DNA of 63,980 bases, the filler included, from Reclinomonas americana ATCC 50394 (lineage: Eukaryota), in assembly GCA_048213135.1 (NCBI GenBank). It is 17 parts of 17 records of this genome, joined end to end, with 100 filler letters (N's around TTAATTAATTAA, not from the genome) between each part and the next. Parts side by side here need not be neighbours in the genome. Positions count along the whole stretch, not along the records: positions 1 to 7,854 come from AFZH01020317.1; positions 7,955 to 12,585 come from AFZH01020318.1; positions 12,686 to 15,314 come from AFZH01020319.1; positions 15,415 to 20,535 come from AFZH01020320.1; positions 20,636 to 22,909 come from AFZH01020321.1; positions 23,010 to 24,922 come from AFZH01020323.1; positions 25,023 to 27,022 come from AFZH01020324.1; positions 27,123 to 32,460 come from AFZH01020327.1; 9 more parts are not named here. One strand, written 5' to 3'. The position numbers were made by a program, and so were the translations under genes. Below, in pieces: positions 2,968-44,100 of the stretch. The notes under the pieces were generated by a model. That model saw nothing but the letters and a program-made list of their open reading frames with translations. It had not been told where the DNA came from and searched no databases. How positions within the stretch are numbered: the stretch's first letter is position 1; each line of letters begins with the position of its first letter.

Positions 2968-5404
2968 ATGGCTTCCTCCTCCGCCCGCACAACAACCACC
3001 GACTCCTCTCCATCGCCACTGCCCAGCGTGCGTCTGCTCAGTCGCAGTGACGTGGAAGGCGACGAGGAACTGCGACGACAACTGATTGACGCGTCGAGTG
3101 GTTTCCCCGACGCATTCGACGACGATGATGATGACGATGATGATGATGTCAGCAGCACTGGGAGTAGCAGTAGTGCAGGTGTGGCTTCGGTGCGGCAGGT
3201 GTCGACTCCCGCTGCACAGGCACAGGCAGCAGCAGCTGCCGCCGATGCAGCGCTGCCAGAGTGGCGACGCAAATCGGTGTCGCCACCTCGCACGAGCACT
3301 GCTGCTGCTGGAGGAGGAGGAGGAGGGACGGCGACGCAGTGGGGACGACCTCGAGTTCAGGTTCGACCTCTCGTCGAGTTTGTGTCAATAGATCTCTTGT
3401 CATGTCGGGTTCCTCTACGACTCTCTCTGCCCGTTCACCTGTTGGGGACCAAGACTTGATCATCTTTTGTCGATCTCTTCGTGGTTTCATCGCTTGACAG
3501 CCCTTCTCCGTGACGTGTTCCTCTCTCCAACTCTCCACTGTTTCGCCCATCTTCTGCCCTGCCGTGTCTCGATCTTTTCTTGGTCACACCGCTCGTCGGG
3601 TCCTTCTCCGTGACGTGTTGCACTCCCGAGTCTTGATCTCCTGCTCAGATCACTTCATGGATTCACTGATCGACAGTCCTGCGTGACCTCTTCCCATGGC
3701 GTGTTCCTCTCCGACTCTCTGCCCATTCACCCATTGGGGTACAAGTCTGCTTTTACTGCCCTGCCGTGTCTCTAGCTCTTCGTGGTTCATCGCTTGACAG
3801 TCCTTCTCCTTCTCCGTGTTCCTCTCTCCCACTCTCCACCGTTTCGCCCTTTGAGGCACGCCAGGCGAGTCTTGATCTTCTGCCCTGCTGTGTCTCGATA
3901 TTTTCTTGTCCTCATGTTTTGCTCATCTGTAATCTTTGCACATCCCTTGCCATTCGTGTGCCACTCGCTCTTCTTCTTTTCGCCACCGTATGCAGCTCAC
4001 TCTGCCTTCCTCACCCACTCCTTCACTCCCTTCGCCCTGTCGCTCATCCCTTTGCCCTCATCTCTCCCTTCCTCCCTCCCCGCAGCGCGCCCATCAAGAC
4101 CCCTCAATCCCCGCATGGCTGTCGGCGTCGGTGCCACCGGAGATGCAGCAGGGCTCACGCTGCCGTGCACAAGAGGAGTTTGTGCAGCAGATCCAGAAGA
4201 CGCAGAAAACGTGGTCGCACCTGCAAAATTCGAGGTATGTGCTGCGGAGCGTGAGCAAGGATCCGAGCAAGACGAGCAAGAGCACTGGTACCAGACAGGA
4301 GGTGTTGGATGACGACGACTTTATGGAGCTGCGACGTGGTGGCCTCGTCAAGTTGCTGTGTTGGTGGGAGTCATTCGTGCACCGAGTGATCGAGGAGGCA
4401 TTCGACGAGCTCGTCCGCTTCGAGGATCCCGACGCCTCGCCCTTTGCCTTGTGCGAGCGCTGGCCCGGCGCCACCGATCGTCTGGCCTGCTACCTGTCCA
4501 CGCTGGGCGCCGGCGGCGACAAGGTGATTCCGCCGGAGCGGCAGATGCAGTTGGTGGCCGAGTTCATTTTGCGCAGTGGCGAGAGGCGAGGCGAGACGCC
4601 GCTGCACCGAGTGCAAGTGGCGTTGCAGGAGCAGATGCGCACCGATCGCTCTCGCACGCTGACATCGCCGCGCGCTCACACGGTCGACAAGGCGTGGATG
4701 AAGGTGTTTGGTAGTTGCGTGAAGAGGGGAGGTCGTCTTCTTTGATGATGGGCTTGCGTCTTACAACTCAATTATCGCGCAGCCAACACGGCACTGTCGT
4801 CGCTGTGGAGTATCAAATTCGTGCGTTGGTGCGCGTGGCGCTTTGGGCAGCGCGGCAACAAGCACCACAGCGAGCTGGCACATGTGGCCATGGGTGCCGC
4901 CACGGCCACGCGCATCCTCAGCTTGTACTACACGGCACGCTGCACGTTTGCACACGGCGTGAACGAGAAGACCGAGTCGGAGGGCTCACTCGGCGAGCAC
5001 TGGAAGGATTTCGAGGCGCACGAGTTCGAGCCGGTGGTTCTTGAGAACCAGCAGCAGCCGCAGGAACCGCCATCCGATTACTTCACCACCAACATTGCCG
5101 AGCAACTCAACGTCTTCCGCTCCAGCCTCATCACTTATGGAGTTGCGTCCTCCCCTTCCGTTTTCTCTCCCCTAGGCCTGTCGCTTCTCACAATTCTACA
5201 ACGCAGGCCAACGCACACGTGCCGCACGGAGTGTTGGTGTCCGCACAGAACTTTTTCATCTCGCTCGGTCATTCCGTGCGCTCCTCCGTGCAGCAGCGCA
5301 TCTACGAGATCACGCAGCGCCGTCTGTGCATCTGGGGCTACCGACCGCCGCCACCACCGCCGTCTGTCGAGGATGATCCGGGTACCGGGGCGCTGTTTGA
5401 CTGA
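2968..5404 (+). CDS. Spliced protein with a disordered acidic N-terminus and a HEPN-like domain (RiboL-PSP/MAE_28990-like pattern)
   Basis: Exons 2968-3360, 4086-4710, ~4783-5141 and 5207-5404 join in frame. Motifs: LVKLLCWWESFVHRVIEEAF, TSPRAHTVDKAWMKVF, ILSLYYTARCTFAHG (R-x4-H at 4938-4955). Confidence 0.65.
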
Positions 5405-5529
5405 GTGCACGGCGACGAGTCTCGGATTGTGTACGCGTTGTTGTATTGGTGAGGGATTGCCGAGGTTGGTGAGCGTCGATTCAGCGTGAGCGCAGCGGGA
5501 GATCGGCTTGGAGAACAAACCATTGCACG

Positions 5530-7735: not shown

Positions 7736-7994
7736 GAGAGGAGGACGACGACGAACGTAGTAGTAAGTAGTGGTGGTGGAGGAGGAAGGAGGAGGAGGAA
7801 GGAAGGAAGTAGAGGAAGGAGGAGAGGAGGAGTACGAGAGGAGGAGTAGTAGGGNNNNNNNNNNNNNNNNNNNNNNNNNNNNNNNNNNNNNNNNNNNNTT
7901 AATTAATTAANNNNNNNNNNNNNNNNNNNNNNNNNNNNNNNNNNNNNNNNNNNNCTACCTTACCGTCCGTCGTCGGTCGGTCGTCGGACGAGTA

Positions 7995-8038
<44 letters not shown>

Positions 8039-9686
8039 AAGAGAGGGGGTCGAGAAGGTGGACACACGGAAACTGTAGAAATGGTGTGGTGAGGAAGAGA
8101 GGGCGAAGAGGGAAAGAATGGAAGGAAGAGGAGCGAGTGCTACAGAGGGAGATGTGGAGAGAGAGAGAGAGGGAGGGGGGGAGGGAGGGCGCAGACGGGA
8201 TGCGTGAGATTGGGGAGGCAAAAGATAGGGAGGAAGAGTGAGAGAACTGAGTAAGCTGGAAGAGGTGAAGAGCGGCCGCGGCTTGTGAGGCAAAAGATAT
8301 TGAAGAAAATTACGCAGCGGGTTAAGGAGGTTGGAGGTTGAGAGCGAGCGGGGCATGGAATGGATTATTAGGTGTAGGAAGGCAAAAGATAGTGGAGGAT
8401 TTACTTGTCGTAAGGGGCAGCATGATTTAGAAGCCGCTGGAAGAGCACTCTTCCGACTCGTTTCTTTTTTGATTACTCTCCTCTTCCTTTCTCTGCTGAC
8501 CGCCCTCTGCCTCGTTTCCTTGCTGACTGCCCTCCTCTTCCTTTCTCTGCTGCCCACTCTCTGCCTCCTTTGTTTGCCGACCGCCCTCCGCCTCCTTTCT
8601 TTGCTGACCGCCCTCCGCCTCCTTTCTTTGCGGACCGCCCTCCGCCACCTTTGTTTGCCGACCGCCCTCCTCTTCCTTTCTCTCTGACCGCTCTCTGCCT
8701 CGTTTCCGTTCCTTGCTGACTGCCCTCTGCCCCCTTTCCTTGCTGACCGCCCTCCTCTTCCTTTCTTTGCTGACCACCCTCCGCCGTCTTTCCACCTCCG
8801 CCTCCTTTCTTTGTTGACCACCCTCTGCCTCCTTTCCTTGCTGACCGCTCTCTGCCACCTTTCCTTGCTGACCGCTCTCTGCATCGTTTCCTTGCTGCCC
8901 ACTCTCTGCCTCGTTTCCTTGCTGCCCACTCTCTGCCTCCTTTCTTTGCTGACCGCTCTCCTCTTCCTTTCTCTCTGACCGCTCTCTGCCTCGTTTCCGT
9001 TCCTTGCTGACCACCCTCTGCCTGCTTTTCTTCTCACCACCCTCTGCCTTCTTTCCACCTCCGCTTCCTTTTTTCTGACCACCCTCCGCCTTCTTTCCTC
9101 TTCCTCCTCCTCCTCCTCCATTCGTTGCTGACCGCCCAACGCTCACACAGGGAGCCCGACACGATGCCGGTGCGACCGAACTGGCTGCACTCGATTGTCA
9201 GCTCGATGGCACTGGCGCCCGGCATGCACACGCAGCAGCACTTTTGGGTCAAGGGCACCAACATGCGGTACGATCCGCCCTTCTACAAGGCCCTCGGTTT
9301 ACCCATGGTGTCCAAGTCCGAGTACTACAATCATGTCAACGGCAATGCCATATATCGGTGCGTGCTCTCTCTCTGTCGCCCTCTCTCTGCGTCTCTCTTG
9401 TTTATTTGTTTGACTGACTCGCGATCATTGCGTGTGCAGGCTGGACTCGCAATGCTTCCGACTATTCCTGTCGGAAGTGCACGAGCACTACACCACGATG
9501 CCATTCGACATTGCGATGCACTATTATCGCGTAAGCAACTACAAGCGGCAGCAGAAGACCGTCTACCGCTTCACGTACACCAACGTGTTGGTGGACATGA
9601 GTGCGCAGAGGTTCGACATCGAGGATCTCGATCCCGAGACGGTGTTGGTGCACGGCAAGTATGCCGCGCTCGCCAAGGGCATTTAG
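6498..9686 (+). CDS. Type II membrane protein, putative GT-A-like glycosyltransferase; spans the 7855 gap
   Basis: N-terminal tail plus one TM helix, then VAVITPFIERQ, CFASIKFLSANL, GPPNQFY, YSHFFYM|EPDTMPVRPNWL, FWVKG, HVNGNAIY, PFDIAM. Exons join in phase across the long 7588-9151 intron. The function is an inference. Confidence 0.7.
7855..7954. other. Artificial assembly gap linker, first of 16; the others start at 12586, 15315, 20536, 22910, 24923, 27023, 32461, 36814, 40279, 48988, 55486, 56994, 59007, 60644 and 62683
   Basis: Identical 100-nt N44-TTAATTAATTAA-N44 blocks with stops in all six frames. True gap size is unknown; PF16 lacks its middle exons at the 36814 gap. Confidence 0.98.
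8490..9115. repeat. Intronic pyrimidine-rich minisatellite (~30-33 bp unit)
   Basis: About 18 variants of ctttc(c/t)ttgctgaccgc(c/t)ctc(t/c)gcctc. Confidence 0.9.
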
Positions 9687-9912
9687 TTTGTGTTTTCTTT
9701 TTCGTGTTAACCCCTGGTGGTCGTTTTTTTAAGTATTTCTGGGACGGGCAAGGTTGTGTGCGTGATGTTTGCGGTTTGTGCTGCGCCATGGCTTTTCTGG
9801 TGGGCGACAATGTCTCCCTCCGGCCCCTCCTTCTTTGTGCGTGTGCGTGTGCGTGTTTGTTTAACGAGTGAGAGTGAGAAAGAAGCAACGTGTGTTTGGT
9901 GTGGTGAGGATA

Positions 9913-10152
9913 ATTTCATAAAGTTCGAGCGTTGGTGATCGGAGGGGGAAGGAGGGAGAGAGGGAGAGAAAGGAGGACTGAGAGACAAGGGTAGGAGAGA
10001 ACAGGCGCGTGGATTCACCTGCTGTGAAGGCATGCAACGCTTTCATAAAGTTCGAGCGTTGGTGATCAGAGGGGGAAGGGTGGAGAAAGAGGGAGGGGGG
10101 GAGGACGAGACAAGGGTAGGAGAGAACAGGCGCATGGATTCGCCTGCTGTGC
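9913..10152. repeat. Direct duplication, ~128 bp x2
   Basis: tttcataaagttcgagcgttggtgatc...gagacaagggtaggagagaacaggcgc occurs twice. Confidence 0.85.
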
Positions 10153-10545
10153 GACGCGAGAGTTGCGTGCTGAAGGCATGCAACGCGTCGACACTGGCTT
10201 CGTGGTTGACGAGCATGCTACCGAGACACCACGGTGGTCCACGTCGTCAGCTCTGCAACAATAGAGGTCGAAATACTGGCGACGTGCCTGCTAACACGGT
10301 TTTGGGAAGGTGAAGGAGAGGCACTTGTTGACCATGAGAACGCACGATGCGAGGAAGGAGCGTTCGTTACATCACCACGTACTGCGTGACGGAAAACGGC
10401 GCTGAGGCTCGAGGTGCCAGAGCACGTGCTCTCGTATCCGCTGGTCTGCAAAAAGATGCGTCACATGCTCGAGACACCCCCCGCCTTCCCCCTTGCCCCC
10501 CCATTCCCTTTCCCCTTTCGTACACAAAAATCGTCTAAATTGTCT

Positions 10546-13189
<2,644 letters not shown>

Positions 13190-14095
13190 TCGTTGGAGGG
13201 AGGGAGGGAGACGCGCGCTCACAGCTGGAAAGCTGCGCGATGATTGGAGAGGAGGACGAACACTGCTTGCAAGTTCGTTTTGCTTCCTTCTCTCAAGCGC
13301 GTGCTGTGACTGCTTGTGGTGTGCATCACTGCAGTGTGGTGATGGTGGTGCAGGCAGTGCTGTTGGACTTGTCGACGTTTCATTGTACTCGCGTGTTCGC
13401 CATCGATATCGCGAGAGTGGCACCATGGCGGGAATGCGATGCAGTGCCCAGGAGCAGGCCACGGCGAAGATGAGGCAGAGGTTGGAGTTGAGAAGGTGCT
13501 CCATCTGTTGGTGGGAGACGCGCGCTCACAGCTGGAAAGCTGCGCGATGATTGGAGGACGAACACTGCTTGCAAGTTGTTTTGCTTCTTTCTCTCAAGCG
13601 CGTGCTGTGAATGCTTGTGGTGTGCATCACTGCAGTGTGGTGATGGTGGTGCAGGCAGTGCTGTTGGACTTGTCGACGTTTCATTGTACTCGCGTGTTCG
13701 CCATCAATATCGCGAGAGAGGCACCATGGCGGGAATGCGATGCAGTGCCCAGGAACAGGCCACGGCGAAGATGAGGCAGAGGTTGGAGTTGAGAAGGTGC
13801 TCCATCTGTTGGTGAGGGAGGGAGGGAGAGACGCGCGCTCACAGCTGGAAAGCTGCGCGATTGGTGGAGGACGAACACCAGAACTGCTTGCAAGTTCGTT
13901 TTGCTTCCTTCACTCAAGCGCGTGCTGTGACTGCTTGTGGTGTGCATCACTGCAGTGTGGTGGTGTCTGTTGATGGTGGTGCAGGCAGTGCTGTTGGTGT
14001 TGCCGACGCGCACGATCATCGTCGATCGCGACGTCGACGTCGTTTTCTCGCATGCATTTGATTGGCACAGCTTGCGATGGAGAAGCGCACACAGA

Positions 14096-15308: not shown

Positions 15309-15414
15309 AACGTTNNNNNNNNNNNNNNNNNNNNNNNNNNNNNNNNNNNNNNNNNNNNTTAATTAATTAANNNNNNNNNNNNNNNNNNNNNNNNNNNNNN
15401 NNNNNNNNNNNNNN

Positions 15415-16250
15415 CTGCGACGACGGTTGGTCATTGGTGTGGCAAAATGTCGTGCGTGGTTGTTCGAGATGCTTCGTCAATTGCATGAACACAAAGCTGC
15501 GTGGCAGCAGGCGTGGCATTTGTGCGAGGAGTGGGAGAGGGATGGCAGTGGCGAGATGACTGTGCTGGATAAGACTGACGCCTTAAGGTGCTTGATGTGG
15601 TTTGCTTACCACTCATGCAGCTTGCCGCTGCTGGTACAGTGTCATGAGCGGCAGTGTGTGACACTGGGTGAGAGTCATCCAGACTCGCTGTGGACGCTGC
15701 TTTTGCAGGCCAGGCATCACTATAACCGGAAGCGGTTTGCTGAAGCTGAGACACTCTATCGACGGTGCTGGGAGATGCGACGACTGGTTCTTGGAGCTGA
15801 GCATCCGGTCACGTTGATATCCATGAATAATGTTGCCGCATGCATCCAAGATGACAGTCGTCTTGAGGAAAGAGTTCAGCTGATCCGAGAATGCTTGGAA
15901 GTAAGGCGAGCAACATTGGGAGTTCGGCATCTGAACACTCTTGCTTCGATGAACAATCTTGCTGTTTCTCTCGAGCAGCAAAACACACCAGAATCGCTGG
16001 CAGAAGCTGCTGATTTGTACCGTCAGTGCTTGGAGGGTCGACGTGAGCTGCTGGGCGACAGACATGTCCTCACGTTGCAGTCGATGTATAACTACGGCAT
16101 TATGCTCACGAAGCAGCAACGATGGGCCGAGGCAGAGGCACTGCTGGTGGAATGTGTGGATGGTCGGCGAGTGGTGCTTGGCGAAGAGAATCCGGAAACG
16201 GTGAATGCCATCAAGTGGTTGACAGAGTGCAGACGTCGTCGTGACCAAGC

Positions 16251-31532: not shown

Positions 31533-31775
31533 ATGAAATCGTTGCTCTGAAAAGATCTCATCTGCACTGGCTGCTTTTGGAACACTTGACCCTTGTTCCA
31601 GTCTTCTCGAATCAACAACTCAGGCACCTTGACAATACGTCCAAGACCTAGTTCTAGATGAGCTCCCAAGACTGTTTGCGGCATCAACAAGCCCACAGCT
31701 ATCTAGTCATTCTACGATTTCTGTGCAACTTCTTTCGTCCGCAAAGAAACTTACAACAAACCATTCCACATTCAT

Positions 31776-34067
31776 TCACGGTAATCTCCGCTTGCTGTGC
31801 TGCTCCAGCAGCGCCGTGCACCTCGCTCTCCTGTCCTCCGCCGACCACAGCTCCGGATACTGCCATCACCAACAGAGTCAGCAGAGACTTCAACGAACTC
31901 GTCAACAATAAACACACTAACCATCATCGCCAACTTGGTGACCTTCTCGGCATGTGTGGGAATGAAATTCCAGTGAATAATATACGTGAGCTGCAAGTTC
32001 TCCGTGAGCTGCAGGAGGTCGTTCTGGTGCCTGAATGCAAAGTGGCCTGCGAGGGGCACAGCGACAGTGCGGTTAGTCGAGGGTCACGGAATTCTATCAA
32101 TCGATAGCTCGACCCACTCTCTCTCCCATCCATGCCTCAAAAAGAAAGATGCCCGCATTCCCAACCTCTATGATAGAACCGACAAGCAACCCTCAGCACA
32201 ACCTTGCCTCACTCAGTCACTCCAAGCTTCAAAAGAAAGTGGCATGGACAAACGTCCTACTCTCAATCAACGTATAGAAGAAAGAGACGCTCACTGTCCA
32301 CGTGAGAAGTTATATATGACTCGCATCCCTTATCATTCTCGTGTGTCACTCGTCGACGTACAAGTCGCTCAACATCACACCTCGTCATCAACACTGCACA
32401 GCCCCACAAACAACAGAGAGGAAAAGCAACCGCGTCAGCAGACATGGAAGGGTACAACCANNNNNNNNNNNNNNNNNNNNNNNNNNNNNNNNNNNNNNNN
32501 NNNNTTAATTAATTAANNNNNNNNNNNNNNNNNNNNNNNNNNNNNNNNNNNNNNNNNNNNTTCCCCCTGTCCATCCCTCCCCTTCCCCTCGCCCCTTCCC
32601 CTGTCCCTCCCCCTCCTTCCCCTCGCCCCTCCCTTCCCCCTCCCTCCCCTTCCCCTCCCCCCTTCCCCCTGTTACCCCCCCCCCCCTCCCTTCCTCACCA
32701 CTCGGAAACTGCAACGGATGCAACGTGCACACCCGCACCGACTTCTTGCCACCCGTTCCCACCGCCACCGGCGCCTCCATGTACCTCGCCCGCATGTGCG
32801 CCTCATTCCACCCCCCATCCAGCTCCGCAAACCGCGCCGACCCACTAAACACCCCCTTTTCCCGCAGCACCGCCTGCAGCGTCACCTGATCGTTGTCGCC
32901 GGAGGTAAGGTTGATCTGCAGCCACCGATCGTAGAGCGCCACCGTGCGCGGACTGGCCGTCACAAAGTAGATGCCGGCGTTGTACATGCCCGGCGCCTGC
33001 CGCACGTACTTGTCGAGGTCGGTGCGCTTGCCGGTGTTGTACTCGTCGTCAATGGCAAACGTCACGTCGCACTGAGCGAGGTCGGGGAAGGCGAGCAGCG
33101 GGCGCAGCAGCGACGTGTCGGCGTCCGCGTGGAAAATGGCGAATCCGCGATACAGAATGTGCCGCATGAGAATGTCGCGCTTCTTCAGCATCTCGCGATA
33201 CAGCGCCGAGTTGAAGCGCTGCGGCTGATTATCCAGCGCGAAGAACGACGGCGAGAAGAACACCGCCGCCTGCCCCCGCGACGCAAAGCTCTCCGTCAAG
33301 TGCGCCGTCAGCGCCTGCGTCCATGACAGGATCAGAATGCCGCCAAAGCCCGGCGCCGCCGGCACCGCCGGCAGCAACCCGAAATCGAGAGCATTGCAGA
33401 GCCAGTTGTCGAGAAAGTCGTTGAAGCCGCCCGACGCCTCCGTCACCACCAGCACCGAGTTGCGCGGGAACTGCAGCAGCACGCGATCCAGCGCCTCCGC
33501 CACCTCCCGCTTCATGTACTGCGAGTCCTCGGCCGGTGGATCAAACGGAGTCGGGTCAATGTCGCCTGTGGGCACCGGCAACGCGATGGGCTCCTCTGTG
33601 GGTGGCGGAGGATCGACAACAGGCGGCGATTCCTCCACAGTTGTCGCCTTGTCCTCCTCCTTGTCTTGTGGCGGTTGCTCCACCACTGGTTCCTCCTTTG
33701 CAGGTGGGGGCGGTGGAGGTGGAGGAGGTGTCTCCACAGGCACCTCCTCCTCCTCCGTCACAGTAGTCGCGTTCTTGTCTGACTCCTCCGCGACCTCCAG
33801 CAGCGATTGGGGGACTTCGGCATCGGCCGCTGCATCGACGCGATCGAGTGCGGCGACCCACTCTTCCCGCGCACGATCCCTCTGCTTGGTGAGTTGTGCG
33901 GCGAGATTCGCTGCCACATGTGCCACGTGCGACTCGGTGCTCTGCATCTGTCGCGTGATCAGAATGTGCACCGCCAGCATGAGGGTGGCGGTGAGCGCCA
34001 GTAGTAGAGGCATGGAGCAGCGGCGGAAGGGCCGTAGTGCCTCTGAGGTGGGAGTGGTGAGACTCAT
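31776..34067 (-). CDS. Nucleotide-diphospho-sugar transferase (GT77-like), type II membrane protein; spans the 32461 gap
   Basis: TM helix and Pro/Glu stem, then FHADADT (DxD), YNAGIYF, NDQVTLQ, LHPLQFPSG. A phase-1 join continues into HFAF...IIHWNFIPTHAEKV (31922-32046) and the last exon YPELW...* (31776-31859). Confidence 0.88.
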
Positions 34068-34244
34068 TTCGCGCGTGGAGGAACGAGAAAAAACGACGCA
34101 CAGGACGCGGTGACGTCGAGGCGTTTGTTCGCTTCGAAATGAGAGGGAGTAGGTGTGTGGTGGGTGGTGGGTGGTGGGGAGTGTGTGGTGTACCATGGGA
34201 GATGTTGTGAGTGGTCGCGGAAGGAGAAAGGTGAGAAAGAGTGA

Positions 34245-35800
34245 CGGGACAGACCAATGTGTCAAAGTGCAGAAAGCTGTTCGCCTCTTCCTCTGCTCTC
34301 CTGGCAGCGTAAAAGTGTGGCACGTGTTGAGGTAAATGCAACACACGTGCTATGCAAGCGGCAGCGACAGGAATCGCTTGCACCCCGAGCTAGCGGTGAA
34401 ACAGTCGCGGGACGTCGACAGACCCATGTGTCCGAGTGCAACAACCTTTTCGCCTCTTCCTGTGTTCATGTGGCGACGGAAACGTGTGGCACGTGTTGGC
34501 GGACATGCAATACACGTGCTCTGTGAACGGCAGCGATAGGAAGTGCTTTCCTCCCGAGCAAGTCGTACAACAGTCGCCGGACAGACCAATGTGTCGGGGT
34601 GTACAAGCAGTCTGCCCTCTTTCTCTGCCCATCTGGCAACAGAAACGTGTGGCAGGTGTCGCGGCACAAGCTACGCACTTGTACCTTTTGGCGGGAGCGA
34701 CAGGAAACGATTGCACCCGGAGCTAGTGGTGAAACAGTCGCGGGACAGACAAAAGTGTCCGAGTCACAGCCCGTCCTCTTCCCGTCTTGCAATGGCGACG
34801 AAAACGTGTGGCTCGTGTTCCTACATAGAGGGTGCACTTGTGCCCTTGGCGGAAGTGACAGGAAATGGTTGCATCTTGAGCAATTCATGAAACCGTCACG
34901 GTAAGCTGTATGCGCTCTCCCTCTGCTCACGCGGCTGCGGAAACGTGTGGCCCGCATTGGCGCACATGCAGCGCACTTGTACCCTTGACGGGGGCGAGAG
35001 AAGATACCTGCACTCCAAGCAAGCCGTGAAACCGTCACGAAATGCACTTCGTGGCTATGGAGTTGTCCGCGCTCTTCCTGCGTTCATGCGGCACCAAAAA
35101 TATGTGGCACATGTTTCGCGATACCCCCTGCACTTGGGCATTCGCTGCTGCCAATCGAGCACACTCCCTTCCCGAGTGATTCACAAAACACTTGCCGGAC
35201 AGACCGATATTTGACATGTACACTTCGGTGAGTTGTTCTCACTCTCCCCTTCTCTCCATCGCAAAAAAAGGTGTTTTGCGTTGCAGTGTGCCTTCGCAAT
35301 CTGGCCCTCTGCCAGAAGGGACTGCCCCCTCTTCCCGCAGGAGAGATGCAAGAAACCGTCAGCGGACCTGCGTTGTGTCCGAATTCGAGTTCGCAGCGTC
35401 ACCCACTCTCTCCCAGCTTCTCTATCGCTCCAAGAATATGCAGCACATGTTGCCAGATCCTAGATGAACGCTAGCCTCCGCTGCAGCCGATCGAGCACTC
35501 TCCCACCCCGAGTGAATCACAAAACTGTTCGGACAGATCTAGAACATTTCGGGAGTTGTTCTCGCTCTCCTTTTCTCTCCATCGCACAAAAAGCATGTGG
35601 CCTGCGTTGCAGCGTACCCCTCCCACTAGCACTTCCGCCAGAAGGGACTGCCCCCTCTTCCCGCAAGAGGGAAGCAAGAAACCAACAGCGGACCACAGTT
35701 GTGTCCGAAACGTCACCCCCACTCTTCCAGCCCCGCTATCGCTCCAAAAACTTGTGGCACTCGTTACCTAGCCATTGATGCACATGCTCCTCCGCTGCTG
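34245..35800. repeat. Degenerate tandem array (~165 bp unit, decaying into a ~335 bp duplicated block) between divergent genes
   Basis: gacagacc.atgtgtc...aaacgtgtggcacgtgt...gcgacaggaa at ~34248, 34417, 34580 and 34744. ccagaagggactgccccctcttcccgca at ~35312 and ~35638. Confidence 0.8.
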
Positions 35801-36147
35801 GCGGCACTGCACTATCCCCTTCACAGCAAGTCGCAAAACAGTCACCCGACGTCGCACAATCAATGTATTCCACTTTTTCCACGCCTTGCCAAACAGTCAC
35901 TTGCCGCACATAGTGCACCACTTCCTATCCCATCACCGCCCTTCCCCTCTTACCGACGTCGCCTTCCCCCGCTTGTCCCACCGCCCGATGACGTCATCGC
36001 GTGGGCGTTGAATCAACAATCGCGCACTCGCTTTGATCCGCAAAGACAACCCGCTGCTGCTGCTGCGCATTCAACCACAGTCTCTCTCATTGCAGTAACC
36101 TAAGAAGAGAACACACACACGCACGCGTGGAAGGAACAACATCAACA

Positions 36148-38039
36148 ATGGCCAATCGTGCAGTGCTTCAGGTCTTTGAGGCCTATCAGAAGGCACGCGT
36201 CAACTTTGTGCAAACAGTCGCCGAGTTGGCCAATCGGTGAGCACACACACACTCTCTCACTCACACACTCTTTCTCTCTCCCTTTCTCTATCTCTGTGAG
36301 TGCGACCAGTGACAGTTCATATATATCGTCCGTTTACATGACTCAGGGCGTTTACTCACCTCTCCTCTTCACACACACACAGACCGGAGAACATTGAGGC
36401 TCTCCAGCATGCAGGCGCCATGGCCTTGCTCCGCCCACTCCTCCTCGTTGCGTCTCCCCTCACACACAAAACACACACAGACGCACACGTGAGAGGGAAA
36501 TGGCCATGACTGACTCTCTCTCACTCTCTCTCACACACACACACTCTCTCTCTCTCGCACTCTCTCTCACACACTCACTCTCTCTCTCTCTCTCTCTCTC
36601 ACTTTCTCTTGCAGGACAACGTGCCCTCGATTCAACAAAGTGCGGCCATGGCACTCGGTCGACTGGCCTCCTTCTCTGAGGAACTCGCCGAGGCCGTCGT
36701 CAGTGGAGAGATCCTTCCGCAATTGGTCTACTCGTTGTCCGAGCAGAACGTTTCGTCAGTTTCCTCCCGCGCGCACATACGCATGGTGTCCGCTTACATA
36801 GTGCGCATTTTACNNNNNNNNNNNNNNNNNNNNNNNNNNNNNNNNNNNNNNNNNNNNTTAATTAATTAANNNNNNNNNNNNNNNNNNNNNNNNNNNNNNN
36901 NNNNNNNNNNNNNCTCTGCTTCCCCCCTCTGCTTCCCCCCTCTGCTTCCCCCCTCTGCCTCCCCCCTCTGCCTCCCCCCTCTGCCTCCCCCCTCCCCTTC
37001 CCCTTCTACCCTTTCCCCCTCTTCCTTTTCCTCTTCTTCCCTTCCCCCTCCACCCCCTTTCCCCCTCTACCCCTTTCCCCCTTCTCACCTCCCTTTCCCC
37101 CCTCGATAGGTGTGCTCTTGCCTCGCCCAAATCGCCAAACACTCGTTCGAGCTGGCCGAGTTGGTGGTGGAGGGCGAGATCTTCCCGAAGATCTTCAACC
37201 TGCTGAAGGACCTGGACGAGGTGGTGCGCAAGAACGCCGCCACCTGCATCCGCGAGATCAGCAAGCACACGCCCGAATTGGCGCAACTGGTGGTTTCTTC
37301 GGGTGCTCTCGGCGTCATTGTCGACTATGTGGGCGAGACCAAGGGCAACAACCGCCTGCCGGGCATCATGACTCTCGGCTACATTGCTGCCTTCTCCGAC
37401 GCCCTCGCACAACACGTGATTGCCAATGGCGGCGTGGTGCCGCTGGCGCAGGCGCTGGACTCGGAGAAGGAGGATCATTTGCGAGCGGCGGCCGCCTGGT
37501 CACTGGGTCAGATTGGTCGCCACTCGTCCGAGCACTCGAAGGCCGTGACCGACGCCGAGGTGTTGCCACTGCTGCTCGATGCGTTCCTTGACCCGCAATC
37601 GTCGGACGACTTGAAGACCAAGGCCAAGCGCGCACTGAAGTCGGTGGTGCAAAAATGCCTCCACTTGCCGGCGCTGCAACCACTGCTCTCGCGCGCCCCC
37701 GTCAACATCCTCACACACGTCACTGGTCAGTACGCCAAGGTGCTGCCGGGCGATCGGACAGCAAGACGAGCGTTTGTGTCGGACGGTGGACTGGAGATGC
37801 TGCAGCGCATTTCCGAGCACGCACCCGAGGGCTCTGAGTTGCAGTTTCGTTGCTCTTCCTCACTGCTCTCCCACTCTCTCTCTCTTTGCTCGTGTGCTCA
37901 TCATGATTGTCCGTGTTACAGAAAGAACATTGACACGATCAACGCATGCTACCCCGACGAGATTGTCAAGTACTACTCACCCGGCTTCTCCAAGAACTTT
38001 GACAAGCTCATTGACAACTACGCACCTCCACTCGAGTAA
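36148..38039 (+). CDS. SPAG6: Axonemal central-apparatus armadillo protein PF16/SPAG6; middle exons missing in the gap
   Basis: MANRAVLQVFEAYQKARVNFVQTVAELA, LLRPLLLDNVPSIQQSAAMALGRLA, RLPGIMTLGYIAAFS, SSDDLKTKAKRALK, INACYPDEIVKYYSPG. Confidence 0.96.
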
Positions 38040-38187
38040 TAATTACCACGGCGACAACAACAGAAGCTTGTTGCTTGTTGTTGTGAATGATTGTTCTTTT
38101 TTCCGAGTAGTGAAGGCAATGAAAAGTGTACATTGTTTCTGTCAGTGTCCTCTCTCTTGTTGTTTGTTTGTTGAAGAAGATGTGGCG

Positions 38188-40278
38188 ATGCGCGACCGTC
38201 GAGTGCCACTCTCTCGCGTGTTGCAAGTGGCGACTGTGATGCTCCTTGCGATGCTCATGGTGTATGTGCTTGTTGTCACTCAGAAGAGAGTTTCGTGTGA
38301 TCTCCCAGTGTGTCTCTCTACGTGTGCATGTGCTGACGCTGATTGCTCTCTCTCCCTCTCTCTTCTTCTTCTTCTCTTCTTCTTGTTAGCGTGATAACGA
38401 GAGTGTGGCCGTGAGTGATGCGACTCTGCAGCGCATTGATGCAAGCGAGAATGATTGCGATGATGATCAAGTGGGATTTCCGTGGTCGCTCTTTGGGATG
38501 GACGAGTCGGCGACGCCTGTGCTGTTGAAGGCGCCGTTTGTTGCGGTGAGCTTGGTGGGGAGTTTGCTCTCTCTCTCTCTCTCTCTCTCTCTGTGCCTCT
38601 GCTTGTCACTCAGTTTCTGTCTTCCTCTTGATCACTCTCCCTCTCTCTGTCCTGCTTCTCTGCATTGCCATCGCTCTCGCAGCGTCTCTTGACTTCTGAG
38701 CCTTCCTTGCTCATATGTTTCCTTCCTTATCTTTTTTTCATTCTCTGCCCCTCGCTCTGTCTCTGTGTTTCACTGCTTCTCTGCATTGCCATTGCTCTCG
38801 CAGCGTCTCTCGTGTGCCTCTGCTTGTTACTTGCTTCTCCTTTCCTCCTCGCATACTCATTACTCTCCTCCCTCTCACCTTGCCTCTTCTCTCCTCCGTC
38901 CCCGCAGTCCATCAACACCAGCGACTGGCTGCTGGTGAGCGAGGACAGCGTGAGTCTGCAATCACCACGAACGGGTGCCTCGCGAGTGCTGGTGGAGAAC
39001 GATGCAGTGTTGTTCAGCGACGGTGGCATGTGTGGCGTGACGTTGCAGCGGTTGCCGCATTTTGACTTGGTGCGTGTGTGTGAGGCGAGATGGTGCACTT
39101 GTCTCTCAGATCACTGACACTTGGAAGTGCAGCCTGCCGACTTTTGTGTCGCGGCACCGATCCGGGCGCCTCGCAATCGACCGCACGAGTTGGGCTCACC
39201 TGTCATCACCAAGGACGACGGTCGAGTCATGTGTCACGACAAGAGTGGTCCTGTGCTCTCCTTTGTGGCCACGGTGCACAATGCGGTGCGTGATATGACT
39301 GTCTGGAGGAAGAGAGAGGAGCCTCTCCTCATACCATGTTCCTCCCGCTCGCAGCTGGTGACACCAGATGGCAGGGTGTTCACTCGACAGCACATGTGGG
39401 CGTCGCATCGGCTGGATGGGGTCGATCGTGATGCGTCGTACTCGTGGAAGACCACCGAATCGGTGGTGCTCGCCGACACAGTGGTATCATTGGTGCAGCA
39501 TCACGGCGACGCCTTCTATCACCTGCTGGGAGAGGTGCTGCCGCGCTTCATGCAAGTGTGGGACGTGGTGCGCGAGCACGAGTCGCACGCCCTGCTCCTC
39601 GTGCGTGACAATGCGTATGGATCGCACGTGGTGTATGACTTTTTCGCACTGCTGGGCATTGGCAGGGACAGGGTGCGATGTGGTGTGCATGGCCTGTTCC
39701 TTTCACGTCGGAGAGCTCATTCCTGTTGTCGCAGATCCTTCTGAATCCACTCGCAGTGTTGGCGCGACGAGTGCTTGTTGCGCAGGGTGTGCGGGGAGGC
39801 GCCGCGCAGCCAGCCTTGTTGCACGAAATGTCTCGCGTGTTCCACTCGCTGCATGGCGCGGCTTTGCGTGCGCAGGTTCAGGAATTTCGAAGCAGTTGCG
39901 CATGTTGAGCTTCCCCTATTCACCAGCTGGCAAGGTCTCACCATCGCGACAGAGCATGATGAAGAGTGGCGCCAATCGGCTCTTCACAATGGTCGTCCTC
40001 GACTGTACGTACTGGTCATCCAACGACCGGGCACTCGAACCCTGACCACGATGGAGAGGGCATGTACTTCTTCTCGCACTTATGCCTTCGTTGTCTCTGA
40101 CGATTCTTTGTGTGTGGCACAGGTCCTGTCGCTCATTGGCGAGGAGTTCCCGCACTGGCATGTCTCCTCGTTCGACACCGCCCAGTCGGCACTGCACAGC
40201 GTGGCACAGTTTGCTCGCAGCGACATCGTGCTGGGGCCGCACGGAGCAGCCTTTGCGCATCGCGCCTTTCTCGCACGA
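38188..40278 (+). CDS. Glycosyltransferase family 61 (DUF563)-like type II membrane protein, 3' truncated by gap
   Basis: N-terminal TM helix; DAFYHLLGEVLPRF; VLVIQRPGTRTL; QFARSDIVLGPHGAAFAH. Confidence 0.85.
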
Positions 40279-40378
40279 NNNNNNNNNNNNNNNNNNNNNN
40301 NNNNNNNNNNNNNNNNNNNNNNTTAATTAATTAANNNNNNNNNNNNNNNNNNNNNNNNNNNNNNNNNNNNNNNNNNNN

Positions 40379-43300
40379 TCGCTCATGACACTGCATCAAC
40401 AACGGCAAGTAGCCTGAATCATAAGCAAACCACATCAGGCACCGCAACGCATCAATCCTATTCAGCACAGTCATCTCGTCACTACCATCCCTCTCCCACT
40501 CCTCGCACAAATGCCATGCCTGCTGCCACGAAGATTTGTGTTCATCCCATTGACGAAGCAACTCATACAACCGGGCTCGACATTTAGCCACCACAATGGC
40601 GAACCGTCGTCGCACAAAACTCATGCCCACATCACCATCTCCACGTTGTCTGCATTCCGTCACAAGCCGCACAAGCGAAGAGGCCACTGCTTCATCAAAT
40701 CCAGCACATGGAAGTTTTTGATCTTCACACTGCTCTCGAATCCATTCCACCGCCCCACACTGCACCAGCAACCCGTTCACGCCAACTGCATCCCTCGCCC
40801 ACATCCCATCATCCTCACCCAATCGTCGCCACACTGCGTGGAGCACTCTGAGCAAGTCACGTGACACCAAGAGCACACCGTCGCTGTCATTCTGAGAATC
40901 AATGCCATTCAGCACACAACACACAAGTCGCACAATCAGTTGCTGCGCCCGTGACACTGCATCGCCACACCGTCCCACAATCCACCCAGCAATCTCGTCG
41001 TGCACTCGATACTCCACCACCACATTACTCTCTCGCACTTGCTCACCGCACAACACACGAGCAACACTGTCCATGCTGCCACTGACACCCACCGTCACCA
41101 GATTCGACAAGCACAGACCTTCCAGCACATCCTCCACTCCTTCGCCTTCACCACCGCCACCCGCCAACTCATCACGCTGCGCATGCACTCGTTGCTCCTC
41201 CTCCTCACTCATCTCGTCAAATTGCAGTCGCTCACCAACCACTTCGGGCGCCCGTCGTCGCCTCTCCTGTGCCCGCTCATGCAGTCGCAGTCGACGCACA
41301 CACTGACTCAACTCCACCAGTCGACTTGCCGCTTCCTCATCTTCATCACTACCACCCACAGCCATCGTCATATCGGGAATCACTCGCAACACACCCAGCG
41401 CCACACGTGCGAGTGCCACTGTCACTGGCAAGCCGAGTTCCTTGCAGGCCGTGATCAACACCAACAGACGACGAGCGGCTGCTGTCTGCGACATCACATT
41501 GCGTTCCAGCAGCTGCGACAGCGCATCGCCACCAATGCCACTCAGCACCTCTTCCAGTCGCGCGCCCACCAGCTGTGCTGCCGACTGTGACAACAACCAG
41601 CTGCATGACGAAGAAGAAGATAAGAGAGAGAAGAATGAGTCTTCATCCACGACACCACATCACTCACTTACTCACCCAACACAAGCACTCACTCGCAGTG
41701 CACTCTTCTCCTGCTGTCCACTCTCCAGTGCCTCAACAATTCGTCGTCGCACTTCTCCCGACACCTTGTCGAGCAGTCGCTCTTCCACAAGCTGCACAAT
41801 GTCCTCGTTCTCCACATTCTCCACCCGCACGCACTCCACCTCCGCTTCATGCATCATCAAATCACGAAGCTCATCCACCACTTGTCCATATCGACTTGTC
41901 ACCACCACAATCGGTGCCACCAGTCCACCTGCACACAGACACACACATGATGCACATCAAGTCAGGTCCCAACATCCAAGCAAGAATGAGAATTCTCTCC
42001 CTCATGACACACGCACCCTCCTCATCACACTGAACAACACTCCTCACTTGCTCCGCAGATCCCACATTGTCCAGCACCATCACTCCACTCGATGCGTGCA
42101 TCAACTGTCGCAGCAGACGACGTGCTGGCTCCACCTCGCCACTCGCCAGCAACGCATCCACCTGACTGTCCATCCTCCGTCCCTCAACTTCATCCTCCCG
42201 CATCTGTGCCGTCACGAAGGCACGCAGACACTCGCCCAGAGCACTTTGCGCCTGCAGCATGGCGAGAAGATTCAGCAGAGTCAGAATGACAACCAAAGAG
42301 GTAGTGTTGCAAGAAAGACACTGGCATGCACCGTAATATGCTCCCTCGCATCGCCAACATGCCCGCGCATCTCCACCGACACGGCCGATCCCTTCCATCG
42401 ACGAGTGGCCAGCAATTCGGTCACCAGCAGCTCGGCCAGGAACGACTTGCCAGTGCCACCATCGCCCGTCAGCACCACCATGATTGGATGATGTGCTGCG
42501 CAAGAATCATCCACCACAGACAACATGATGAGAAAATGAATATGCAACGGGAAGGGAGAATGAGAATGACAAACCAACCTTCCACTGCATCCACAATGCG
42601 CGTGGCGAGTGAGGCTGCCAGGATACGCCGACTAGGGAAGCGGAATGTGGTTACTGGATTGACAGTGCGCGCGATGAGTGGTGTCGTAGCTGGGCGACTG
42701 CTGTCAGGCGCTGTGTGGCAGAGTGAGCACAGCAATTCACATTCAAATGCAGATCAACCATGGAACACACCTGCAGTTGATGGAGAAGAAGGCGAGATGA
42801 TGCTTGGTGAGTCAAGCCATTGGTGCTCGTGCTCCACCTCATCTCGAATCTGATTCATCACACGCAAGTGAGAAACAGAGAGCCATCTTCAAGTGACCGC
42901 CTCCTCATGCATTCCCACTCAACTTGCTCCATGTGTACTAGCAGCAACGACTGGTCAGCTTGACTCAGTGCACCTGCATTCACACACAACCAAGAGAGCA
43001 TCAGATTCCACATTGAATCAAATCATCTACTCACGCCAGCCATCTCTCCATCACTCACCATCACGAGCCTCATTCAGCTGCACCACCAAGTCCTCCTCCA
43101 CATGCCTGTCAATCTGCAGTCGCCGCACAAGCTGACGCAGCTCGCCTTCTTCTCCTCCTCCGTCACCAAGCAGAGATACAAAGAGTGCACGAGCTCGGAC
43201 AGGACTCGCCTGCTCAAACACCTCCGTCATTCGCTCAAGCGCATCACGCTGTGTAACAACAGGAGAGTAAGAGACACAATTACACAGAGGGAGATCACAC

Positions 43301-44100
43301 TCCTCTTCCTTCCATCTCATTCTCACACACTCACCACATCACCAGCTGGAATCAGACGATCTGGCTCGTCTCTCGGGTGCTCTCGATGACCCGCCAGCAG
43401 CAAGATCGAGCAGCACAGCATGGCATCAAACGAACTGCAGTCGTGCAGCTGGCCTCGCTGACGCCACTCACGCACCATCTGCCGCTCCTTCTCGTTCAAC
43501 TGGACACACATGTCCACTCCGTCCGGCATGGTTCTACATATGGGGGAAAGGCACAAGGATGCAGGTGAGTCGAGGGACGTGTGTGACAAGAAAGAGAGGG
43601 CATTGATCGGGGATAGAATGCGGAGTGTTGGTGAGACAATGGAGAGTGTGAGAATGGGGAGAAAGAGACGACCAGTGCGTCACCGTCTTCCACTTGCTTG
43701 TGGCAATCATATCTCTTCTCTCATTCCCATCTCCATTTGCATCTTGCCATCGTGTGCTCCCATATCCACCCCACACAAACACTCACCGCACATCACGCTC
43801 ACTCGGCGCCTTGCACCACTCGGCGACGTGATTCACACCGGGATATGAATCGAGAAATGCCGGCAGCACTTGCTCGAGTTTGGATTGCAGAGCGCGGGTG
43901 CATGAACGAGACAGGGCTTTGACAAGGCGCATCATGCACTCCTCATCACCCGCATCGTGAGGATGACTGCACGAGAGGAGAGGAGAAGAGAGTGACAGGG
44001 AACGAATACACACAATGAATGATGACGATGATTGCATCTGACAACAACACAATGAGATAAAGACACGCAACTCACGCGGCACTCCACTCCCACTCGCCAT
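40379..44100 (-). CDS. Multi-exon STAND (NB-ARC-like) NTPase with a degenerate HEPN-like N-terminal domain; C-terminal TPRs inferred from the paralog; 3' truncated
   Basis: Phase-consistent exons 44072-44100, 43787-43966, ~43335-43533, ~43059-43248 and further exons downstream. Walker A VLTGDGGTGKS (42443-42466), VEMRG, Walker B VMVLDNVGSAEQV, IVVVTSR. Confidence 0.82.

What the first reader, a model, noticed from the sequence alone, without database searches (positions are those of the whole stretch)
2968..44100. Possible eukaryotic defence cluster: two HEPN families, three STAND-family loci and a free WD40 array in ~41 kb
Seen: stand-alone HEPN (2968-5404), free WD40 gene (14096-15308), TPR paralog (15415-16266), HEPN-NACHT-WD40 (27461-31532) and HEPN-like-STAND (40379-44100), mixed with local duplications. 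Linkage is supported because two glycosyltransferase genes splice in phase across linkers and PF16 and ERCC6L2 have exons on both sides of one. Inference: an immune gene hot spot analogous to NLR clusters or bacterial defence islands.
Basis: partly seen in the sequence, partly recalled or inferred. Interest (0 to 1): 0.7.

Follow-up and report, generated by a model that had tools for sequence, protein, structure and literature searches.

The report
Scattered NLR-like genes on gapped scaffold
This stretch of a draft protist genome holds one intact NLR-type sensor gene, one gap-truncated relative and two repeat-only pieces among ordinary genes, but most of the proposed RNase (HEPN) heads and the idea of a dedicated defence island are not supported.

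Summary
The 41-kb interval is 11 short contigs joined by 10 artificial linkers (N44-TTAATTAATTAA-N44). The real spacing between contigs is unknown.

**What is real**
- An intronless NACHT-pentapeptide-WD40 gene (27486-31532).
- A seven-blade WD40 ORF (14232-15308).
- A TPR_10/12 ORF cut at a contig start (15415-16266).
- A multi-exon P-loop STAND-like gene on the minus strand (40379-44100), cut at a contig start. Its tail is 76% identical in protein to the head of the TPR fragment, so those two are paralogues.

**What is not supported**
- HEPN is only a weak lead for the NACHT N-domain.
- HEPN has no support for the "stand-alone HEPN" (2968-5404) or the STAND gene's head. The Rx4-6H motif occurs 12 times per 1000 residues in all long ORFs here.

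**Linkage**
- Proven at one linker: the two PF16 halves flank 36814-36913.
- Statistically supported overall: adjacent contig ends share microsatellite words (p=0.004).
- Untested at the linkers that tie in the TPR fragment and the STAND gene.

**Context**
- Unchecked notes of this scan record NLR-like genes and clusters on many other pieces of the same genome (27 of 232 notes). This locus therefore looks like ordinary birth-and-death of a dispersed family, not a special hot spot.

**Verdict:** new member of a known kind, low to moderate interest.

The parts
2968..5404 (+). Exons read here are about 4161-4700, 4783-5142 and 5208-5404, with introns starting GTAGTTGCG and GTTGCG.
   Evidence: ATG at 2968 and TGA at 5402-5404. 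Splice sites were read from the sequence. GC3 is 0.80-0.81, like the housekeeping exons. It contains RCTFAH, but Pfam, PDB, Atlas and PADLOC gave no match.
13101..14008 (.). Tandem repeat of about 315 bp, about 90% identical, directly upstream of the WD40 ORF.
   Evidence: Self-blastn.
14232..15308 (+). Intronless seven-blade WD40 ORF with no STAND domain upstream on its 2.6-kb contig.
   Evidence: Pfam WD40 E 8e-58. Translation. 66-71% nucleotide identity to the WD40 part of the NACHT gene. ATG and stop.
15415..16266 (+). 3' fragment of a STAND-TPR gene: a pre-TPR segment plus TPR_10/12 repeats, followed by polyQ/N-coding repeats. Its 5' side is cut by the contig start.
   Evidence: Pfam TPR_10 E 1e-33. 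The first 79 residues are 76% identical to the last 79 residues of ORF 40379-41659(-). 84.7% nucleotide identity over 235 bp.
27486..31532 (+). Intact intronless NLR-like gene of 1348 aa. Order of parts: orphan helical N-domain (27486-28220, RNKLRH at residues 133-138), NACHT (about 28251-28748), pentapeptide repeats (about 29541-29723), 13 WD40 repeats (about 29733-31466).
   Evidence: The chassis aligns with P0002 over 1185 residues at 25% identity.
32562..34349 (-). GT77-type glycosyltransferase gene (Nucleotid_trans) with a signal-anchor. It may continue into 31939-32049 across linker 32461-32560.
   Evidence: Pfam PF03407 E 2e-14. Donor and acceptor are in phase across the linker. This is unconfirmed.
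36148..38036 (+). PF16/SPAG6 flagellar central-pair gene, split by linker 36814-36913.
   Evidence: ORF 36510-36812 aligns to PF16 residues 43-96. ORF 37110-38036 aligns to residues 229-470, and to SPAG6 residues 472-506.
39745..40278 (+). GT61-like exon running into the contig end.
   Evidence: Pfam PF04577 E 7e-4, below its cut-off. Translation.
40379..44100 (-). Multi-exon STAND-like gene, with its 3' end cut by the contig start. The P-loop GDGGTGKS lies in ORF 42284-42631. VMVLDN, VVVTSR and GLPV motifs lie further on.
   Evidence: Paralogy of its tail to the TPR fragment. No homologues were found.
44788..45723 (+). Decayed partial copy of the PF16 3' half, a pseudogene.
   Evidence: 84% nucleotide identity to 37144-38140. 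tblastn shows two frames, an in-frame stop and deletions.
7855..40378 (.). Span holding the ten synthetic linkers: 7855-7954, 12586-12685, 15315-15414, 20536-20635, 22910-23009, 24923-25022, 27023-27122, 32461-32560, 36814-36913 and 40279-40378.

Best explanation
**What it is.** The interval is a gap-ridden, scaffold-ordered run of short contigs from a draft assembly of an intron-rich protist. It carries members and remnants of two NLR-like STAND families that are inferred to be lineage-expanded.
- An intact gene: orphan N-domain, NACHT, pentapeptide repeats, WD40.
- A related WD40-only ORF.
- A P-loop/NB-ARC-like gene whose TPR tail is lost in an assembly gap.
- The TPR tail of a paralogue of that gene.

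They are interspersed with housekeeping genes and a decayed PF16 copy. This pattern is what local duplication and decay (birth-and-death) of a dispersed receptor-like family produces. It is not a dedicated defence island.

**How the intact gene would work (inferred, not shown).** The WD40 propellers bind a ligand. This releases the NACHT switch to bind nucleotide and oligomerise, which brings the N-terminal domains together. If the N-domain is a HEPN RNase, its dimerisation would activate RNA cleavage and arrest or kill the cell.
For: - Domain calls for the NACHT gene, the WD40 ORF and the TPR ORF are significant.
- The NACHT-pentapeptide-WD40 chassis aligns over 1185 residues with database protein P0002, which lacks the N-domain.
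- The TPR fragment and the STAND gene overlap by 79 residues at 76% identity, E 7e-39.
- A PF16 pseudogene copy sits beside the STAND gene.
- Contig order is not by size, and it joins the two halves of PF16 in the right order and strand.
- Adjacent contig ends share more 7-mers than non-adjacent ends: 4.3 against 2.05, permutation p=0.004.
- STAND-related ORFs have GC3 0.56-0.62, against 0.71-0.81 for PF16, GT77, the epimerase and locus A. This fits weakly expressed or fast-turnover genes.
- Unchecked scan notes list NLR-like genes on many other pieces of this genome: 27 of 232 notes, including clusters of five and three. They also list tandem stand-alone seven-blade WD40 genes.
Against: - Genome-wide density could not be measured because no genome is held. 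'Not a special hot spot' therefore rests on unchecked notes.
- Only one of the ten linkers in the interval is proven by a spanning gene.
- The linkers at 15315, 20536 and 40279 have no support, and two of them cut inside paralogous coding sequence, where scaffolding is error-prone.
- The STAND call for 40379-44100 rests on sub-threshold Pfam matches plus motifs that I recognise from memory of NB-ARC.
- No expression data were available.
- The N-domain has no detectable relatives. One irrelevant repeat hit came from 1.84 billion representatives. The effector step is therefore a guess.
Confidence: 0.6

Rival explanations
1. One reading: a true immune-gene hot spot. Two STAND families, free sensor arrays and HEPN effectors are kept together because they work together in defence, like plant NLR clusters or bacterial defence islands.
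For: - Two different STAND families, each with a second related piece, lie within one ordered run of contigs.
- One linker is proven and order is supported overall.
- The N-domain of the NACHT gene has a HEPN-type RNxxxH motif and weak Atlas leads to HEPN_Swt1 and HEPN_DZIP3.
Against: - Two of three HEPN calls have no support, and the motif occurs 12.15 times per 1000 residues by chance.
- Two of the five 'members' are truncated pieces.
- Unrelated housekeeping genes fill the gaps.
- None of the 11 pieces scanned matched a PADLOC defence family beyond P-loop level.
- Similar or denser clusters are noted elsewhere in the genome (unchecked).
- No functional or expression evidence exists.
Confidence: 0.2
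2. Assembly artefact. The pieces are not neighbours. Short leftover contigs are enriched in multi-copy families that assemblers cannot resolve, so lining them up mimics a cluster. The WD40-only and TPR-only 'genes' are assembly fragments.
For: - All contigs are 1.2-8.6 kb, and many end in microsatellites.
- Contigs 15415-20535 and 40379-48987 both break within 235 bp of the same homologous point of a STAND-TPR gene.
- Linkers have a fixed length, so they carry no distance information. At least 132 PF16 codons are missing at a 100-base linker.
- Earlier notes call this a mixed assembly (unchecked).
Against: - The PF16 halves are adjacent, co-linear and on the same strand.
- Contigs are not sorted by size.
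- Adjacent ends share repeats beyond chance, p=0.004.
- The PF16 pseudogene on the contig next to the PF16 contig suggests a local duplication.
- The WD40 ORF has its own ATG and stop inside its contig.
Confidence: 0.15
3. The STAND genes are real and linked, but they serve non-immune signalling or self/non-self cell-death control, as fungal NWD/HET-E proteins do. Alternatively, they are decaying copies with no function.
For: - Low GC3 relative to neighbours.
- Truncated copies and a pseudogene nearby.
- No match to known defence families.
Against: - The 1348-codon ORF is intact with all domains.
- A P-loop is present.
- The architecture is the one used by intracellular sensors in several kingdoms (PMC3710099 passages; PMC11291939 passages).
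Confidence: 0.05

Closest known systems
NACHT-pentapeptide-WD40 ('NACHT-PPR-WD40') NOD-like receptors, described in Mortierellomycota fungi and their Mycoavidus endosymbionts (PMC11291939, passages read); database protein P0002
   Same: Same order of NACHT, pentapeptide repeats and WD40 propellers. P0002 aligns from the pre-NACHT segment to the last propeller at 25% identity over 1185 residues.
   Different: The gene here carries an extra orphan N-domain of about 190-245 residues that P0002 lacks. It sits in a protist genome. No close relatives were found.
HEPN-NACHT and HEPN-STAND-TPR proteins: DZIP3-type and CXorf38-type HEPN fused to NACHT in animals and Capsaspora, and bacterial HEPN-STAND-TPR (Anantharaman et al. 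2013, PMC3710099, passages read)
   Same: An N-terminal helical domain with an R-N-x3-H motif ahead of a STAND NTPase and repeats. The Atlas feature search points to HEPN_Swt1 and HEPN_DZIP3 clusters.
   Different: No profile or fold evidence that the N-domain is HEPN. Atlas scores of 0.81 and 0.78 lie in the range that shuffled sequences often reach.
NB-ARC-TPR candidate pathogen receptors of the brown alga Ectocarpus (PMC3341825; search listing and start of abstract seen) and fungal/bacterial NB-ARC-TPR proteins
   Same: A P-loop STAND core followed by TPR_10/12-type repeats. This is reconstructed here from the gene at 40379-44100 and the paralogous TPR fragment at 15415-16266.
   Different: No significant NB-ARC Pfam match here. 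Neither copy is complete in the assembly. No sequence relatives were found.
Plant and animal NLR gene clusters formed by tandem duplication (general knowledge, recalled)
   Same: Paralogues and truncated copies lie near each other, with pseudogene debris.
   Different: Only two copies per family here. They are separated by housekeeping genes and by gaps of unknown size. Linkage is only partly shown.

Membership tests
NACHT-type STAND NTPase / NLR-like (gene 27486-31532) | NACHT domain above the Pfam gathering score, with a Walker A P-loop | tested here: met
   PF05729 scored 43.4 bits against a cut-off of 26.7, E 4.2e-11. GNSGAGKT was read in the translation.
NACHT-type STAND NTPase / NLR-like (gene 27486-31532) | C-terminal ligand-sensing repeat array | tested here: met
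   13 WD40 stretches, E 5e-146. Pentapeptide repeats by Pfam, E 8e-6, and by PDB matches.
NACHT-type STAND NTPase / NLR-like (gene 27486-31532) | Role in immunity or cell death | not testable with these tools
   No RNA run was listed. No genetics available.
HEPN superfamily (N-domain 27486-28220) | Rx4-6H motif with a polar residue after R, at the end of helix 3 (definition from PMC3710099) | tested here: inconclusive
   RNKLRH lies at residues 133-138, at the end of a predicted helix. The base rate of Rx4-6H is 12.15 per 1000 residues, and the model has pLDDT 37.5.
HEPN superfamily (N-domain 27486-28220) | Profile or fold match to a HEPN family (four-helix up-down bundle) | tested here: inconclusive
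   No HEPN family in Pfam at E<=1. PDB phmmer found nothing. The AlphaFold single-sequence model is unusable. Atlas feature leads were HEPN_Swt1 0.81 and HEPN_DZIP3 0.78.
HEPN superfamily (gene 2968-5404) | Rx4-6H motif with a polar residue after R, plus a profile or fold match | tested here: not met
   RCTFAH has Cys after R. Pfam, PDB, Atlas and PADLOC gave no match for the exon that carries it.
HEPN superfamily (head of gene 40379-44100) | Motif plus a profile match | tested here: not met
   Only RRLQIDRH and RQRGQLH are present, which is chance level. No Pfam or PADLOC hit on the three N-terminal ORFs.
NB-ARC/STAND-TPR (gene 40379-44100 with fragment 15415-16266) | STAND NTPase domain above a curated threshold | tested here: inconclusive
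   AAA_16 scored 20.4 bits against a cut-off of 32.6. nSTAND3 scored 19.6 bits against 27.2. The motifs GDGGTGKS, VMVLDN, VVVTSR and GLPV were read and matched to NB-ARC from memory.
NB-ARC/STAND-TPR (gene 40379-44100 with fragment 15415-16266) | TPR array C-terminal to the NTPase in the same protein | tested here: inconclusive
   The gene is cut at the contig start. TPR is seen only in the paralogous fragment, at 76% identity over the 79-residue overlap.
Immune gene cluster / defence island | Physical linkage of the members | tested here: inconclusive
   One of 10 linkers is proven. One is plausible. Order is supported overall at p=0.004. Linkers at 15315, 20536 and 40279 have no support.
Immune gene cluster / defence island | Local density above the genome average | not testable with these tools
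   No genome is held. Unchecked notes show 27 of 232 notes on STAND/NLR/HEPN elsewhere in the genome.

The most novel reading that the evidence does not exclude
A protist keeps two unrelated NLR-like families side by side together with free sensor-only proteins: a seven-blade WD40 and a TPR tail. These sensor-only proteins would act as decoys or regulators of the full-length receptors. The intact receptor would carry a previously unseen, sequence-orphan HEPN-type RNase head. That would make this a eukaryotic counterpart of bacterial HEPN-STAND abortive-infection sensors.
Probability: 0.1. Interest if true: 0.6.

Novelty: new member of a known kind. Interest (0 to 1): 0.3.

Why it matters
NLR-like STAND receptors outside animals, plants and fungi are poorly charted. 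An intact NACHT-pentapeptide-WD40 gene with an orphan head in a protist adds a data point on how such receptors swap effector domains.

For the scan, the main practical lesson concerns windows built from short contigs with artificial linkers.
- Each junction must be tested before any 'cluster' is claimed.
- An Rx4-6H motif alone is not evidence for HEPN in this arginine-rich translation space.

Tried and rejected
**Sequencing runs and own genome**
- Sequencing runs: none was listed and no RNA holder was listed.
- The window's own genome is not held.

**Homologue searches**
- NACHT head plus NACHT region: 1 hit, P0002.
- GT77 catalytic region: 4781 candidates, none significant. The test of linker 32461-32560 by homology therefore failed.
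- STAND exon 40379-41659, longer proteins: none.
- Exhaustive search of 1.84 billion representatives with the N-domain: 1 hit. It is a repeat protein matching only the pre-NACHT residues 193-231 and is irrelevant to HEPN.
- Metagenome scan with the N-domain plus NACHT: 177 pattern matches, none confirmed.
- Cluster look-up of P0002 and P0003 gave no names.

**Structure and profile tests**
- AlphaFold2 on the N-domain without an alignment gave pLDDT 37.5. It was not used for a fold search.
- PDB phmmer on the N-domain, the locus A exon and the STAND exon gave nothing meaningful.
- The Atlas search on the locus A exon gave no usable hit.
- PADLOC on 11 pieces gave only P-loop-level matches.
- Pfam on 117 short ORFs near linkers found no family that bridges a linker.
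- Pfam on 86 further ORFs found nothing at E<=0.01.
- Pfam on the putative GT77 exon across the linker found nothing at E<=10.
- BLASTP among all candidate head exons found no similarity between the three supposed HEPN regions.

**Earlier findings and ideas considered**
- Look-ups of earlier findings by sequence for the NACHT gene, the STAND exon and the WD40 ORF returned nothing.
- I considered that the TPR fragment and the STAND gene are two ends of one gene. I rejected this because they overlap by 235 bp at only 84.7% identity.
- I considered bacterial origin of the intronless NACHT gene. This was not pursued. Its GC3 of 0.59 differs from housekeeping genes but equals that of the other STAND pieces.
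Full report
**What the window is.** The 63,980-base window is not one continuous sequence. It holds 32 runs of exactly 44 N, in pairs around the 12-mer TTAATTAATTAA. That makes 16 synthetic six-frame-stop linkers joining 17 contigs of 1,198 to 8,609 bases. Ten linkers and eleven contigs fall inside the finding's interval 2968-44100. The linkers have a fixed length, so '41 kb' is a lower bound and carries no distance information. No whole genome is held for the window, and no sequencing run was listed.

**Are the contigs really neighbours?** I tested this junction by junction.
- *Linker 36814-36913 is a real ordered gap.* ORF 36510-36812(+) aligns to residues 43-96 of Chlamydomonas PF16 (7n6g). 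ORF 37110-38036(+) aligns to PF16 residues 229-470, and to residues 472-506 of SPAG6. The PF16 start codon lies at about 36148. At least 132 codons of PF16 are missing at this 100-base linker.
- *Contigs are not sorted by size*. Such a hit would be very unlikely in an arbitrary order.
- *Adjacent ends share repeats.* The right end of a contig and the left end of the next share more 7-mers than non-adjacent pairs: mean 4.3 against 2.05, 20,000 permutations, p=0.004. The clearest cases are 24923-25022 (ACGT/ACGGTA repeats on both sides) and 48988-49087 (C/CT-rich on both sides).
- *Linker 32461-32560 is plausible but unconfirmed.* The GT77 gene on the minus strand ends an exon with '...FPS g|gtgagg'. 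The previous contig offers '...ctcgcag|gc cac ttt...', which continues the frame. The homologue search found nothing, Pfam does not see the short exon, and the intron would be at least 544 bases, long for this genome.
- *The ERCC6L2/SNF2 claim is weak.* It rests on acidic low-complexity ORFs on either side of 48988-49087.
- *Three linkers have no support.* For 15315-15414, 20536-20635 and 40279-40378, the adjacent contig ends are non-repetitive. Two of the flanking contig starts, at 15415 and 40379, lie inside coding sequence of paralogous STAND-TPR genes. These are exactly the junctions that would tie the TPR fragment and the STAND gene to the rest. Earlier notes call this a mixed assembly (unchecked), so scaffold boundaries could also hide behind identical linkers.

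**The five claimed members.** I scanned all 252 stop-to-stop ORFs of 110 residues or more against Pfam. Fifteen had a family at E<=1e-3.

1. *27486-31532(+).* This is one uninterrupted ORF of 1348 codons.
   - It has NACHT above the gathering score, pentapeptide repeats and 13 WD40 stretches.
   - From residue 219 to the end it aligns with database protein P0002 (1917 aa, 25% identity over 1185 positions). P0002 starts directly with the pre-NACHT segment and lacks the head.
   - This is the NACHT-pentapeptide-WD40 layout described for Mortierellomycota and their endosymbionts (PMC11291939, passages).
2. *14232-15308(+).* This is an ORF with its own ATG and stop, and seven WD40 blades of the same repeat type.
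   - It is 66-71% identical in nucleotides to the NACHT gene's propellers.
   - Upstream on its 2.6-kb contig there are only microsatellites and a tandem repeat of about 315 bp, with no NTPase.
   - Earlier notes describe tandem families of stand-alone seven-blade WD40 genes elsewhere in this genome (unchecked). A free WD40 gene is therefore plausible.
3. *15415-16266(+).* This is a TPR_10/12 ORF that begins at the first base of its contig, so it is a 5'-cut fragment. PolyQ/N-coding repeats follow it.
4. *40379-44100(-).* This is a multi-exon gene.
   - It has a P-loop exon (GDGGTGKS) and further exons with VMVLDN, VVVTSR and GLPV motifs. From memory, these resemble the NB-ARC kinase-2, RNBS-B and GLPL motifs.
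   - Pfam gives only sub-threshold AAA_16 and nSTAND3 matches.
   - Its last ORF runs into the contig start. Its final 79 residues are 76% identical to the first 79 of the TPR fragment, E 7e-39, with 84.7% nucleotide identity over 235 bp. The two are therefore paralogues of one STAND-TPR family, each incomplete in the assembly.
5. *2968-5404(+).* This is a real spliced gene.
   - It has an ATG, a stop and introns beginning GTAGTTGCG and GTTGCG. Its GC3 is 0.80.
   - It matches nothing.

**The HEPN calls.** HEPN is defined by a four-helix up-down bundle with Rx4-6H at the end of helix 3, usually with a polar residue after R (PMC3710099, passages).
- *Motif base rate.* Rx4-6H occurs 587 times in 48,316 residues of long ORFs, or 12.15 per 1000. 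The motif alone says nothing.
- *NACHT head.* It has RNKLRH, with polar N after R, at the end of a predicted helix. Support is otherwise thin:
  - Pfam shows no HEPN family at E<=1.
  - PDB phmmer shows nothing.
  - The exhaustive search of 1.84 billion representatives gave one hit, a repeat protein matching only residues 193-231.
  - The metagenome scan found no relative.
  - The single-sequence AlphaFold model has pLDDT 37.5.
  - The Atlas feature search puts HEPN_Swt1 (0.81) and HEPN_DZIP3 (0.78) first, but by the tool's own statement such scores are reached by a third of shuffled sequences.
  - I rate HEPN here at roughly even odds.
- *Locus A.* It has RCTFAH, with Cys after R, and no support from Pfam, PDB, Atlas or PADLOC.
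- *Head of the STAND gene.* It has only chance-level motifs and no matches.
- *Comparison among the three.* The three supposed HEPN regions show no similarity to each other.

**Surroundings.** Between the STAND pieces lie ordinary genes:
- PF16.
- A GT77 glycosyltransferase.
- A GT61-like exon.
- A zf-AN1 exon.
- An NAD-dependent epimerase.
- An SNF2 helicase.
- A GST-like ORF by eye.

Next to the STAND gene sits a decayed copy of the PF16 3' half. It has 84% nucleotide identity, two frames, an in-frame stop and deletions. This shows local segmental duplication and decay.

The STAND-related ORFs have GC3 0.56-0.62. PF16, GT77, the epimerase and locus A have 0.71-0.81. That fits weakly expressed or fast-turnover genes.

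**Is the density special?** I could not count STAND genes genome-wide. The scan's own notes are unchecked. They list 27 of 232 notes in this genome that mention NACHT, STAND, HEPN or NLR. These include a five-member NACHT-pentapeptide-WD40 cluster with swapped heads, a three-copy NB-ARC-TPR-polyQ array and an NB-ARC-TPR pair. If those hold, the family is large and dispersed, and this locus is one of several, not the densest.

**Verdict.**
The NLR-like genes and repeat pieces are real. Two HEPN calls are unsupported and one is a weak lead. Two 'members' are truncated.
- Linkage is shown at one junction and supported statistically, but it is open exactly where it matters.
- The best reading is birth-and-death of a dispersed NLR-like repertoire on a poorly assembled scaffold.
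- HEPN-STAND and NACHT-WD40 architectures, and NLR clustering by duplication, are already known (PMC3710099; PMC11291939; PMC3341825, listing and abstract only).
- This is a new member of a known kind, of modest interest. The scan found the same kind of genes before on other DNA of this genome.

Noticed in passing
window 44788-45723 (copy) and 37144-38140 (original): There is a partial, decayed duplicate of the PF16/SPAG6 3' half. It has 84% nucleotide identity, frameshifts, an in-frame stop and deletions. It lies between the STAND gene and an epimerase gene and is flanked by direct repeats 44271-44626 and 47040-47393 (83.7%).
   Followed up: partly
window 27486-31532, 14232-15305, 15415-16263, 40379-41659 versus 37113-37835, 32694-34067, 45815-47020, 4161-5142: STAND-related ORFs have GC3 0.56-0.62. 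Housekeeping exons and locus A have GC3 0.71-0.81. This is a clear codon-usage split within one stretch.
   Followed up: partly
window 27486-31532: A 4-kb NLR-like gene has no intron, in a genome that earlier notes and the neighbouring genes show to be intron-rich. This may point to retroposition or foreign origin. The only chassis relative found, P0002, is 25% identical.
   Followed up: no
window 4701-4782 and 5143-5207: The introns of locus A begin GTAGTTGCG and GTTGCG. This matches the one-base-shifted donor class that earlier notes report for this genome.
   Followed up: partly
window 13101-14008: A tandem repeat of about 315 bp and about 90% identity lies directly upstream of the WD40 ORF, after long GT and TAG microsatellites.
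   Followed up: no
window 16223-16496: Long CAA/ACA/AAC repeats coding polyQ, polyN or polyT lie just after the stop of the TPR fragment.
   Followed up: no
window 24728-24791 and 60795-60857: A 64-bp element is 98% identical between two otherwise unrelated contigs.
   Followed up: no
window 8446-9137: An internal tandem repeat of about 135 bp encodes a highly basic ERR/KER-rich ORF on the minus strand and runs into linker 7855-7954.
   Followed up: no
window 26590-27021 (-): A clean coding exon starts at the right end of its contig, so its 5' part should lie in or beyond linker 27023-27122, just upstream of the NACHT gene. Its identity is unknown.
   Followed up: no
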